From: an uncultured Acidimicrobiales bacterium
GTDB taxonomy: Bacteria > Actinomycetota > Acidimicrobiia > Acidimicrobiales > UBA10347
Assembly: GCA_943788915.1 (NCBI GenBank)
Contig: CALSSD010000008.1
Location: 84,902-148,901, forward strand
Length of the DNA stretch: 64,000 nucleotides
Direction: 5' to 3'
Below, one piece after another: positions 30,201-33,200 of this stretch (positions are counted from its first letter, which is position 1; each line of letters opens with the position of its first letter). A program made the position numbers.

Positions 30201-33200
30201 CACACCGTGGCACCAGGATCAGCCGTACTACAACGTCGATGGCTCCCAGAACGCCAGCATGTGGTTCCCCGTCGACCCGGTCCCCCGGGCCGCAACCCTG
30301 GAGTTCATCGCTGGCTCACATCGGGGCCCGTGGTTCATGCCTCGGACCTTTCTCGATGAACAAGCCAAGTGGTTTCCTGAAGGAAGCCTGGCCGAGATGC
30401 CCGACTTTGCTGCCGACCCAGAACGGTGGCCGGTCATTGGCTGGGAGCTCGAACCGGGCGATGCCGTCTTCTTCAACATGGTGGCCGTGCACGGCTCAGC
30501 TGGCGTCGATGGCCCCCATCGCCGGCGGGTGTTGTCCGTGCGTTTCTTAGGCGACGACATGGTCCATGCACCTCGTCGATGGACCACGTCACCACCGTTT
30601 CCCGGCTTGACCGACGAACTTGCACCAGGCGCAGCCATGGACCATCCGCTGTTCCCCGTCCTCTGGGAAACGACAATCGACGAGCCCCATCCACACGAAA
30701 AGCGGCGTTCGGCGCTGCTAGTCGACGGCGGATACGTGCAACCCGATCGCTGATTCGGGGTTCAGGATCACCATCTGGAGGCCAGCCCCGAGCTGAGCAA
30801 ACGACACGAGTGCCTCGAAACCCAAGGGTGTGTTCGGCCGGTGGTGATTCCGGGCCTCGACCAGCACCTGGTGATCGGGCACAAGCGCCCAGTTGAGATG
30901 GGCCCGGTACAGATCTGAGTCGGGGTTCACCATCTCTGGCTCGGACCCTGTCGGCCAACGTACGTTCCTCGCACCTTTTCAGGAACAAGACTGCCTGTAG
31001 TGTCCTGCGATGGCCTACAGCAGCGAACCATCGGAAACCCCTGTCGATATTCCCTCGGGCCCTCACGAGTGGCATCGGGTACTTGATCGTGAGGAACTCG
31101 ATGTTCGCCGTGTAACGACAGTCGCCGTCGGTCGCCGCACGTTGTGCGTGACGAACATCGACGGGCGTTATGGCGCCATGGACAATCATTGCCCACACCA
31201 AGGCGGCCCACTCGGCGAAGGTTCGATCGAGAAGGGCTGGCTTCGTTGCCCATGGCACGGATTCGACTATTCACCCTGCAACGGCAAGCCGCCTGGGGGA
31301 TTCGACGATGCTCCACAGGCGTATGCAACTCAAGTCCGCGACGATGGCGTGTACGTGGCGCTCCCACCCGAGGAAGATCCACCGCGGTCCGTATCTAACG
31401 TGATGGTCGACACCATGATCAACTGGGGCGTCGATGCCGTCTTCGGCATGGTTGGCCACTCCAACCTTGGGTTCGCAGACGCTATGCGCACCGCCGAAGC
31501 CCGGGGCGACCTTCGTTACTTCGGCATACGCCACGAGGGTGCTGCTGCGTTCGCCGCAACTGCCTATGGCAAACTCACCGGCCGGCTATCAGCATGCTTC
31601 GGCATTGCTGGACCCGGATCAACCAATCTGCTCACTGGCCTCTACGACGCCAAGGTTGACCGAGCGCCAGTGCTCGCGCTCTCGGGGCAGGTCCCATCGA
31701 AGGACAAGGGTCGCGGTGCCTTTCAGGATCTTGACCTCGAAGGGGCCTTCGCCGACGTGGCGGCATTTAGCGAGACAATCCATGCGGGAGCAGACCCAGC
31801 AGAGATCATGAGCTTGGCGTGCAAGACCGCGCTGGTTGAACGCAATGTTGCCCACATCGTGTTGCCCGACGAGGTGCAAGTCCTGGCTTCCGATGTCGAG
31901 CCCAGCGGACCCACTGGGCGAGTGGGCTCCCGGCTGATTGCTCCCCCGGCTGATGTCCTGGCCGAAGCGCTGTCGATGATCGCAGCGGCGTCGCGGCCAT
32001 TGATCACCGTTGGAGCGGGAGCGCGTCACGAGATGGCGCAGGTTCTGCAGTTCGCCGAACACATCGGAGCGCCAGTCGCAACCACGTTCAAAGGCAAGGG
32101 TCTGATCAGCGACAGCCATCCGCTTGGTTGTGGTGTGCTCGGGCGTTCGGGCACACCGATCGCAAGCTGGTTCATGAACGAAAGCGACCTAATCATCGTC
32201 TTCGGTGCATCATTCTCGAACCACACCGGCATCGCCTCGTACAAACCAATTATCCAGGTCGACGACGACCCCATGTCGCTCGGCCGGTTTCACTCCGTCG
32301 ACGTACCAATGCAGGCCAACGTCGGTGTCGCTGCGGCAGCGCTCATAGACGGTTTGGGTGCCGACGCCGACCGCCACGACTTCTCTGCAGAAGTCGCCGA
32401 ACGGTGGGCCATCTGGCGGGCCGAGAAAGCTCAACGGGTCGACGACGACCGAGGCCAAGGAATCGGTGCCGCAGTGTTATTCGAAACGCTCAGCGACCAT
32501 GTGCCCGACGATGCCGTCATCTGTGTCGACGTTGGTAACAACACCTACTCGTTCGGTCGTTACTTCGAGGTCACCAACCAAGATGTGCTGATGTCGGGTT
32601 ACCTCGGTTCGATCGGGTTCGGCTTTCCTGCTGCGATGGGTGCCTGGGCGGCGGTTGGCGCCAACCGGAAGGTCGTGTCGGTGTCGGGCGACGGCGGGTT
32701 CGGCCAATACGCCATGGACTTCACCACTGCGGTGAAATACGAGATGAACATCACCCATGTGTTGATGAACAACGCCCAGCTTGGCAAGATCTCCAAGGAA
32801 CAACGAGCTGCACACTTCGATGTGTGGCAGACCAGCCTGGTCAATCCCAACTTCGCCGACTTCGCTACGTTGTGTGGCGGCCTTGGCATCCGAGTCACCG
32901 ATCCCGCAGACCTCAACGAAGCCCTGGCTCAAGCTATGGCTCACGACGGTCCGGCACTCGTCGAAGTCATCACCGACGCACAACTTCTCTGATCACGCTG
33001 ACTGCGTTTGCGAGAGCCAGGGGCTCATCGCCAACACCACTGACCAGCCGTCGCTGATCATTGGTGCGCACTCCCCCGTTTCCGTGACATGATGCGGCCA
33101 TCATGGCCTATGGGCATCTGAACGACGACTCGTAATGAGTGCAAGCGTCGCAGCCGTTGCATTCACCATCATCGCGTTCGCGCTGATCTCCAAACGGATC

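What a model noticed while it worked through the whole genome (the two positions that open the first line are those of the whole stretch)
31010..32992. Rieske [2Fe-2S] domain fused to a pyruvate-oxidase-like ThDP enzyme
g02587 (660 aa) joins an N-terminal Rieske domain with intact ligands (C61-x-H63 ... C80-x-x-H83) to a complete ThDP enzyme of the pyruvate oxidase/acetolactate synthase family (34% identical to B. subtilis YdaP). I read it as a self-contained 2-oxo-acid oxidoreductase in which electrons from the ThDP/flavin site leave through a built-in Rieske cluster rather than to O2 or quinone. New would be an iron-sulfur-wired member of the POX/ALS family, a third way (beside PFOR and PDH/POX) to oxidise 2-oxo acids.
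Evidence so far: Pfam Rieske 20-93 (E 1e-15), TPP_enzyme_N 127-242, _M 318-445, _C 507-653 (each E ~1e-33); Swiss-Prot YdaP 34.4% over 126-654. Ligand motif found by regex. The first 260 aa (Rieske + TPP_N in one frame) recur at 52-76% identity from residue ~5-20 on in 8 of 200 other Actinomycetota genomes sampled, in 653-887-aa open frames.
(Added by a program. Inside this text positions count along the whole contig: contig position 84,902 is position 1 of the stretch shown here. "Call 12" and the like, gene names such as g00115 and contig names such as C1 are that model's own, and its searches are not shown. The text may have been shortened before it was handed on; [...] marks where a part breaks off. 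The agent that wrote the report below was given it as the finding of a first reader that could run no searches.)

Follow-up and report, generated by a model that had tools for sequence, protein, structure and literature searches.

The report
Pyruvate-oxidase-type enzyme with docking Rieske carrier
One intact, widely conserved gene joins a small iron-sulfur (Rieske) domain to a pyruvate-oxidase-type thiamine enzyme that lacks the usual membrane tail; the iron-sulfur domain is predicted to dock over the flavin site and likely carries away electrons taken from a 2-oxo acid, a wiring for which I found no published study.

Summary
Confirmed. 31010-32992 encodes one 660-aa Rieske + POX/ALS-fold protein. 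The four Rieske ligands are invariant in 113 of 113 aligned relatives, and two DNA runs show no indel. The family is its own clade outside characterised POX enzymes. All 144 carrier-bearing rows lack PoxB's C-terminal tail. Relatives carry rubredoxin or added CDGSH-Fer4 domains instead. A complex model docks the Rieske His83 tip on the loop beside the flavin site (0.81, best control 0.00), on a surface conserved in Rieske forms but not in the rubredoxin sister group. Best reading: a ThDP/FAD 2-oxo-acid dehydrogenase whose electrons likely leave through the tethered cluster (0.62). Substrate, FAD redox role and acceptor are untested; the active site differs from PoxB (Lys593 for Phe465, His150). 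It is not context-free: a Rieske-FMN glutamate-synthase-domain gene (elsewhere in this genome), a DUF5996-like gene, an antiporter and, in proteobacteria, a Rieske-haem membrane protein recur with it, none obligatorily. It is PoxB chemistry with a new exit, not a third chemistry. No paper found; this scan noted the fusion before in other genomes.

The parts
31010..32992 (+). Whole gene: Rieske-POX-type ThDP enzyme, 660 aa; ends at the equivalent of E. coli PoxB residue ~531, with no linker or membrane tail
31067..31363 (+). Rieske ferredoxin-type domain (res 20-118); ligands C61, H63, C80, H83; closest solved relatives are dioxygenase ferredoxins (CarAc 1vck, T4moC 1vm9)
31388..31735 (+). PYR domain (TPP_enzyme_N 127-242): catalytic Glu176 (=PoxB Glu50), Phe238/Gln239 (=Phe112/Gln113), clade motif G149-H150-S151-N152
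31961..32344 (+). Middle dinucleotide-binding domain (TPP_enzyme_M 318-445): PoxB-equivalent G335/G337/K363/G375/G378/G399/Q416/D418 kept; AHAS RFDDR replaced by SFSNH
   Evidence: FAD role of these residues recalled
32141..32179 (+). Loop and helix 378-390 (=PoxB 252-264; R379/S380 = L. plantarum POX R264/V265), predicted docking site for the Rieske His83 loop; S386/W387/N390 conserved in Rieske forms only
32528..32968 (+). PP domain (TPP_enzyme_C 507-653): GDG561-563...N588 metal/diphosphate motif, V508, K593 at the PoxB Phe465 position, E597
33135..34388 (+). Downstream cation/proton antiporter (PF00999); same subfamily lies near the fusion in 6 of 80 GTDB loci and 3 of 7 further proteobacterial loci; role unknown

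Best explanation
The gene encodes a POX-fold thiamine enzyme with an intact N-terminal Rieske domain and no membrane tail; it likely works as a soluble ThDP/FAD 2-oxo-acid dehydrogenase whose tethered Rieske cluster is predicted to dock beside the flavin and carry electrons out one at a time. Steps: (1) ThDP activation by Glu176 and decarboxylation of a 2-oxo acid: residues shown, activity inferred. (2) Oxidation of the enamine by FAD: dinucleotide-site residues shown, FAD binding and redox role inferred. (3) Release of the free acid rather than an acyl phosphate or acyl-CoA: inferred. (4) Re-oxidation of FADH2 by the Rieske cluster in place of quinone: tail loss shown, docking predicted, electron transfer inferred. 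(5) Hand-off to a higher-potential acceptor that differs by lineage, likely the Rieske-bearing haem membrane protein in proteobacteria and unidentified here: inferred. Substrate odds (my judgement): pyruvate about 40%, 2-oxoglutarate or another dicarboxylic 2-oxo acid about 35%, other 25%.
For: Closest solved relatives by sequence and fold are E. coli PoxB, C. glutamicum PQO and L. plantarum POX. Catalytic and cofactor-site residues are kept. Tail: 144 of 144 carrier-bearing rows end within 13 residues of position 657, against 43 for PoxB; 23 of 69 rows without a detected carrier are also short (rows not independent). Carrier swap: a rubredoxin subclade is sister to the Rieske clade (FastTree 1.0), a second rubredoxin clade is separate, and CDGSH-Fer4 additions nest inside. 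Complex model: 0.81, best of 3 controls 0.00; the mark was reached by 116 of 157 solved complexes and 2 of 215 mismatched pairs (counts hold only roughly: own alignment, ligands riding along); runs agree in at least 81% of contacts, partner pLDDT at least 85; Rieske 79-85 touches core 378-390. S386/W387/N390 are kept in 30/26/27 of 30 Rieske rows but 1/0/0 of 3 sister rubredoxin rows, whereas H150, N152, R379, H405, K593 are shared 3 of 3. Acetate kinase not found in 9 of 10 carrier genomes searched. PoxB needs its C-terminal helix for quinone coupling (PMC7245740, passages).
Against: No cofactor, activity or potential was measured, and the FAD-to-cluster distance could not be read (no coordinates returned). 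The two docked chains are parts of one gene folded from one alignment, which may favour a pass. Phe465, which promotes ThDP-to-FAD electron transfer in PoxB (PMC7245740), is Lys in 111 of 113; the PoxB Gly310-Asp311 pair is Ala-Asn here, with Asp in only 35 of 113. The GHxN motif is shared with this genome's IolD, a non-redox hydrolase. FAD is non-redox in AHAS (recalled). Tail-less relatives without a carrier exist (P0134, P0139, L103). No acceptor gene was identified in this genome or in family f17. The sister rubredoxin group has only 3 rows.
Confidence: 0.62

Rival explanations
1. Gate or sensor, not wire: the Rieske domain covers the active-site funnel as PoxB's tail does and switches activity with redox state or O2, while the core is an H2O2-forming oxidase or a non-redox lyase/hydrolase (IolD- or AHAS-like) with a structural FAD or ADP.
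For: The predicted docking surface includes the funnel residues 596-604 and the C-terminus. GHxN is shared with IolD. Phe465 is replaced by Lys. HACL/OXC and AHAS folds score only slightly below POX.
Against: Three kinds of iron carrier occupy the N-terminus of this protein group and of its FMN partner, which fits electron transfer more simply than sensing. The AHAS RFDDR motif is absent and the genome has its own AHAS, IolD and Xsc above their cut-offs. IolD is only 22% identical.
Confidence: 0.18
2. Dedicated couple: the enzyme oxidises pyruvate and passes electrons Rieske-to-Rieske to the neighbouring FMN/[3Fe-4S] glutamate-synthase-domain protein, driving reductive amination of 2-oxoglutarate.
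For: Partner in 19 of 41 other carrier genomes of the class, adjacent in 11 of the 19; within 2.6 kb in 8 of 8 in the phylum of G202; present in this genome on C5. It keeps the three cluster cysteines and GltS Lys937/Arg957 equivalents. Carriers sometimes match: rubredoxin with rubredoxin (L088), CDGSH with CDGSH (L099).
Against: 22 of 41 carriers lack the partner at E 1e-130 (an upper bound: G025 has a divergent one); 5 of 5 checked f17 genomes have only full-size GltB; 32 of 40 partner-bearing genomes in the phylum of G202 lack the fusion. Rubredoxin and CDGSH centres near 0 mV are poor reductants for the GltS flavin (recalled).
Confidence: 0.15
3. Reverse or activating flow: the Rieske domain brings electrons in, to keep the flavin reduced for a non-oxidative reaction or to repair it after oxidation.
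For: The closest solved Rieske domains are donor ferredoxins of dioxygenases; reduced FAD is reported to matter for AHAS (recalled).
Against: Overall sequence and fold are nearest to oxidative POX enzymes; no reductase gene recurs beside it.
Confidence: 0.04
4. Chance read-through or mis-assembly of two genes.
For: None found.
Against: Same frame in independent assemblies; linker 9-10 residues in 113 of 113; found in bacteria and haloarchaea.
Confidence: 0.01

Closest known systems
E. coli PoxB, pyruvate:ubiquinone oxidoreductase (PDB 3EY9/3EYA); C. glutamicum PQO (9EV3-9EV6)
   Same: Three-domain POX fold; Glu50, Phe112/Gln113, Val380, GDG...N motif, Glu469 and middle-domain glycines have equivalents.
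   Different: 28% identity; no C-terminal linker or lipid-binding helix; N-terminal Rieske domain; Phe465 to Lys, Asp27 to His, His80 to Asn, Met408 to Ile; separate clade; 311 bits against a cut-off of 792.
L. plantarum / A. viridans pyruvate oxidase (1POX, 1V5E), SpxB, Bacillus YdaP-type (PRK08611)
   Same: Best Foldseek hit 1pox; best NCBIfam PRK08611; Arg264, Gln122 and Glu483 equivalents kept.
   Different: 406 bits against cut-off 742; Phe479 position is Lys; no C-terminal extension; acetate kinase not found in 9 of 10 carrier genomes.
Acetohydroxyacid synthase large subunit
   Same: Fold; Asn at position 206; FAD-type middle domain.
   Different: RFDDR and GQHQM motifs absent; 281 bits against cut-off 538; the genome has a separate AHAS.
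Rieske-type ferredoxins of ring-hydroxylating oxygenases (CarAc 1VCK, T4moC 1VM9)
   Same: CxH...CxxH spacing, no disulphide pair, small three-sheet fold.
   Different: Fused to a ThDP enzyme; predicted to dock on it.
Pyruvate:ferredoxin oxidoreductase (PFOR/OFOR)
   Same: Likely the same logic: 2-oxo-acid electrons go to an iron-sulfur centre in the same polypeptide.
   Different: Unrelated fold family (no POR_N, no [4Fe-4S] domain in this protein); likely flavin-mediated, CoA-independent and higher in potential (inferred).
[quoted passage not shown]
   Same: FMN barrel, three-cysteine [3Fe-4S] motif, Lys937/Arg957 equivalents.
   Different: No glutaminase domain; N-terminal Rieske, CDGSH, rubredoxin or DUF2769 domain.

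Membership tests
POX/ALS structural family of ThDP enzymes | PYR, middle and PP domains in order | tested here: met
POX/ALS structural family of ThDP enzymes | Catalytic Glu and GDG...N metal/diphosphate motif | tested here: met
   E176 113/113, D561 112/113, N588 112/113
Pyruvate:quinone oxidoreductase (PoxB/PQO) | C-terminal linker and lipid-binding helix | tested here: not met
   ends ~41 residues short of PoxB
Pyruvate:quinone oxidoreductase (PoxB/PQO) | Phe465 between ThDP and FAD | tested here: not met
   Lys593 in 111 of 113
Pyruvate:quinone oxidoreductase (PoxB/PQO) | NCBIfam equivalog cut-off and clade membership | tested here: not met
   311 vs 792 bits; outside the PoxB clade (FastTree only)
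Pyruvate:quinone oxidoreductase (PoxB/PQO) | FAD-binding middle domain | tested here: inconclusive
   8 PoxB-equivalent positions kept, Gly310-Asp311 changed; binding not shown; site roles recalled
H2O2-forming pyruvate oxidase (LpPOX/SpxB/YdaP) | NCBIfam cut-offs | tested here: not met
   406 vs 742; 294 vs 638
H2O2-forming pyruvate oxidase (LpPOX/SpxB/YdaP) | Acetyl phosphate and H2O2 as products | not testable with these tools
   indirect only: acetate kinase not found in 9 of 10 genomes
Acetohydroxyacid synthase | RFDDR acceptor-binding motif and family cut-off | tested here: not met
   SFSNH; 281 vs 538 bits
IolD dione hydrolase | Family-level similarity beyond the GHxN motif | tested here: not met
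   22% identity to the genome's IolD; TIGR04377 not among the best 25 of 58 families shown
Rieske [2Fe-2S] ferredoxin | Cys-x-His ... Cys-x-x-His ligands | tested here: met
   113 of 113
Rieske [2Fe-2S] ferredoxin | Cluster bound, midpoint potential | not testable with these tools
   needs EPR and titration
PFOR/OFOR | POR_N fold, [4Fe-4S] clusters | tested here: not met
   no such domains in the protein

The most novel reading that the evidence does not exclude
The fusion is one half of an undescribed NAD- and CoA-free oxidation shunt built from carrier-tagged flavoenzymes: the Rieske-FMN protein oxidises glutamate to 2-oxoglutarate and ammonium, this enzyme oxidises 2-oxoglutarate to succinate and CO2 (basic active site His150/His405/Lys593), and both drain four electrons through matching iron tags (Rieske, CDGSH or rubredoxin by lineage) into a Rieske-haem membrane protein or oxidative-stress reductases.
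Probability: 0.2. Interest if true: 0.85.

Novelty: new variant of a known kind. Interest (0 to 1): 0.62.

Why it matters
Characterised POX enzymes give their electrons to O2 or to quinone. A widespread clade that swaps the membrane tail for a tethered, exchangeable iron carrier would be a third exit for the same chemistry: a soluble, likely CoA-free, flavin-to-iron-sulfur 2-oxo-acid dehydrogenase. It occurs in about a fifth of sampled genomes of the window's class, in proteobacteria and haloarchaea, and in rubredoxin form in methanogens, ANME-2 and Dehalococcoidia, where databases label it pyruvate oxidase or acetolactate synthase. The docking model gives specific residues to test (H83, R379, W387, N390, K593) and a handle on the equally unstudied stand-alone glutamate-synthase FMN proteins.

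Tried and rejected
Artefact: rejected. AHAS, IolD, Xsc, PoxB or SpxB membership: rejected on motifs and cut-offs. Obligate pairing with the Rieske-FMN protein: rejected. Obligate Rieske-haem membrane partner: not found in this genome (its one Ferric_reduct hit is a ferric-reductase/FNR-type protein without a Rieske motif), and only 3 of 80 GTDB loci scored for it. Expression: two metatranscriptome runs hold the region, but as contigs that also cover intergenic DNA, so transcription is not shown. Promoter and terminator scan: no sigma-70-like site directly upstream; counts near shuffle level. One search was meant for Pseudomonadota but sampled Actinomycetota; it was used only for the frequency check. 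The first neighbour clustering merged shadow ORFs and was redone. My regex missed Rieske motifs with longer spacing and short rubredoxins; fixed, where L052 and L197 still fall under 'none'. Literature: nine answered searches (searches are the ten counted; two were for POX residues) gave no title or abstract on the fusion. PMC5859297 (passages) lists CDGSH with Glu_synthase and Rieske_2 but has no hit for thiamine, TPP or pyruvate. PMC6037941 and PMC12606649 (passages) do not bear on it. The PoxB structure paper PMC2582286 was not held. Subscription journals and supplements were not searched.

Full report
OBSERVATION. Window 31010-32992 (+) is one 660-aa frame with Rieske 20-93, TPP_N 127-242, TPP_M 318-445 and TPP_C 507-653. 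DNA runs X3 and X6 each have one contig across the gene with no indel in it. AlphaFold2 on a 113-row alignment gives mean pLDDT 94.1 and pTM 0.91. The 113 rows are the query, 104 locus proteins kept from 114 after thinning at 88% identity, and 8 database proteins. The Rieske ligands are invariant in all 113 and the linker is 9-10 residues in all.

DISTRIBUTION. About 3200 stored stretches of the GTDB collection match the search patterns, by the tool's estimate; 80 loci were kept. Full-length matches: 41 of 200 other genomes of the window's class; 12 of 300 in the phylum sample; 7 of 300 besides G202 in the phylum of G202, an alphaproteobacterial MAG by its record title. Record titles also name Acidobacteria, Trueperaceae, Kofleriaceae and Poribacteria, Marinimicrobia and haloarchaeal plasmids. 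Of 15 DNA runs listed as holding the stretch, 11 are labelled marine metagenome and 4 are unlabelled.

WHAT THE CORE IS. Nearest solved proteins are E. coli PoxB, C. glutamicum PQO and L. plantarum POX by sequence and fold. None of the best 25 NCBIfam families shown reaches its cut-off (best PRK08611, 406 of 742). In a FastTree tree of 120 cores, the Rieske forms are one clade (0.998) joined with a three-row rubredoxin group (1.0), outside the clade holding PoxB and the Bacillus and Lactiplantibacillus enzymes (0.998); a second rubredoxin clade is separate (deep branches weak). Kept against PoxB: E176 (E50), F238/Q239, V508, D561, N588, E597, and middle-domain G335, G337, K363, G375, G378, G399, Q416, D418. 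Changed: H150 (D27), N206 (H80), I535 (M408), K593 (F465), A436/N437 (G310/D311). That these middle-domain residues hold FAD is recalled. The AHAS motif RFDDR is SFSNH here; the genome has its own AHAS, IolD and Xsc above their cut-offs. GHxN at 149-152 is shared with IolD. The extra basic residues leave the substrate open.

THE TAIL IS GONE AND THE CARRIER IS EXCHANGEABLE. The protein stops about 41 residues before PoxB does. PoxB's C-terminal helix 558-568 binds lipid and positions Phe465 for electron transfer, with ubiquinone as acceptor (PMC7245740, passages). Of 213 full-length cores examined, 144 carry a detected iron domain (115 Rieske, 6 Rieske plus CDGSH, 23 rubredoxin) and all 144 are tail-less; 23 of the other 69 are short too, two of them mis-sorted Rieske-clade rows (rows are related, not independent). 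Rubredoxin forms are named from Dehalococcoidia, Methanomicrobiales and ANME-2. The idea that the carrier replaces the anchor I read in an earlier scan note and then tested.

DOCKING. Folding residues 17-120 against 123-660 with FAD and a 2Fe-2S cluster scored 0.81 against 0.00 for the best of 3 controls; the mark was reached by 116 of 157 solved complexes and 2 of 215 mismatched pairs, counts that hold only roughly here; runs agree in at least 81% of contacts, partner pLDDT at least 85. The best contacts join Rieske 79-85, including ligand His83, to core 378-390. R379/S380 equal L. plantarum POX R264/V265; that this loop flanks the flavin ring is recalled. None of the 60 best PDB matches spans both parts, so memory of a like complex is unlikely, but the chains are two parts of one gene with one alignment. 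Independent of the model, S386/W387/N390 are kept in 30/26/27 of 30 Rieske rows and 1/0/0 of 3 sister rubredoxin rows, while H150, N152, R379, H405 and K593 are shared by all 3. Predicted interface columns are more conserved than their domains overall (0.81 vs 0.73 core; 0.81 vs 0.68 Rieske; no control for burial). Coordinates were not returned, so cofactor distance and same- or cross-subunit docking are unknown.

PARTNERS. A Rieske + glutamate-synthase FMN-domain gene lies in 25 of 80 GTDB loci, a DUF5996-like gene in 20 of 80, the downstream antiporter subfamily in 6 of 80 (many loci are short; DUF5996 is a lead at score 0.87, 27% of members). This genome has the first two side by side on contig C5. 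In the class sample 19 of 41 carriers have the FMN partner, 11 adjacent, and 7 of 26 partner genomes lack the fusion. In the phylum of G202, 8 of 8 carriers have it within 2.6 kb, together with a Ferric_reduct membrane protein ending in a Rieske domain and a Cys-motif membrane protein, but 32 of 40 partner genomes lack the fusion. Five of five checked family-f17 carriers have only full-size GltB. In metagenome loci an FMN-domain neighbour occurs at 16 of 29 Rieske, 1 of 3 CDGSH-Rieske, 4 of 18 rubredoxin (one a conventional Fer4 type) and 0 of 10 carrier-less anchors. So the link is real but not obligatory.

MECHANISM. Most likely ThDP decarboxylates a 2-oxo acid, FAD oxidises the enamine, the acyl group leaves as free acid (acetate kinase not found in 9 of 10 carriers), and the docked Rieske cluster takes electrons singly to an outside acceptor. 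The Rieske domain is nearest to dioxygenase ferredoxins and lacks the serine and disulphide of bc1-type proteins, suggesting a modest potential (recalled rule). Rubredoxin and CDGSH sit near 0 mV (recalled), which favours outflow for both this enzyme and its FMN partner over reductive amination. The genome has two POR_N-family enzymes, so this is an added route. Shown: architecture, residues, tail loss, carrier swap, neighbours. Predicted: docking. Inferred: cofactors, direction, substrate, acceptor.

KNOWN OR NEW. It works like PoxB but fails PoxB, SpxB, AHAS and PFOR membership tests. Ten literature searches (listings and abstract starts) showed no study of the fusion; open-access library only. 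Databases already name the domains. This scan noted the fusion and its partners before in other genomes (look-alikes in 39 genomes, 8 notes shown). New variant of a known kind; interest 0.62.

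Noticed in passing
L081:9678-12193 (G000:C5, about 537677-540192, +): Overlapping DUF5996-like gene and Rieske-FMN glutamate-synthase-domain gene, the usual neighbours of the fusion, sit here away from it, after a malic-enzyme gene.
   Followed up: yes
L079:3086-4950; L179-L185; L149: Ferric_reduct (MsrQ-like) membrane protein with C-terminal Rieske domain plus a Pfam-less membrane protein with a conserved Cys/His motif, in 8 of 8 proteobacterial loci.
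   Followed up: partly
L092:7831-9345, L107:1036-2529, L114:7835-9328: Glutamate-synthase FMN domain with an N-terminal Cys-rich DUF2769 domain directly downstream of the POX-type gene (rubredoxin-fused in L092 and L114; cut off in L107).
   Followed up: partly
G000:C3:182648-184390 (+): Another Rieske fusion: N-terminal Rieske domain on a ~470-residue region of unknown family.
   Followed up: no
window 21233-21555 and 36582-36769: In-frame tandem repeats inside genes: 93 bp x3.5 in an Lhr-like helicase ORF and 78 bp x2.4 at the start of an RNA-methyltransferase-like ORF (gene labels from my reading of the sequence).
   Followed up: no
window 29822-29860: Short dispersed element with a palindromic core upstream of the PhyH gene; depth spike and loose ends in all four runs; 8 copies within 4 mismatches in a one-strand genome search.
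   Followed up: partly
window 34390-35789: A lipoprotein-like gene appears split over two minus-strand frames; other runs differ by 1-2 base deletions at 34394, 34623, 34684, 34771 and 35367-9, so this assembly may have small indel errors here.
   Followed up: no
L197:5007-6973; L041, L045, L061, L071, L080: Copies of the fusion read in two frames (frameshift or sequencing error).
   Followed up: no
window 29887-30753 (+): Upstream PhyH-family dioxygenase on the same strand; not among the recurring neighbour clusters.
   Followed up: partly
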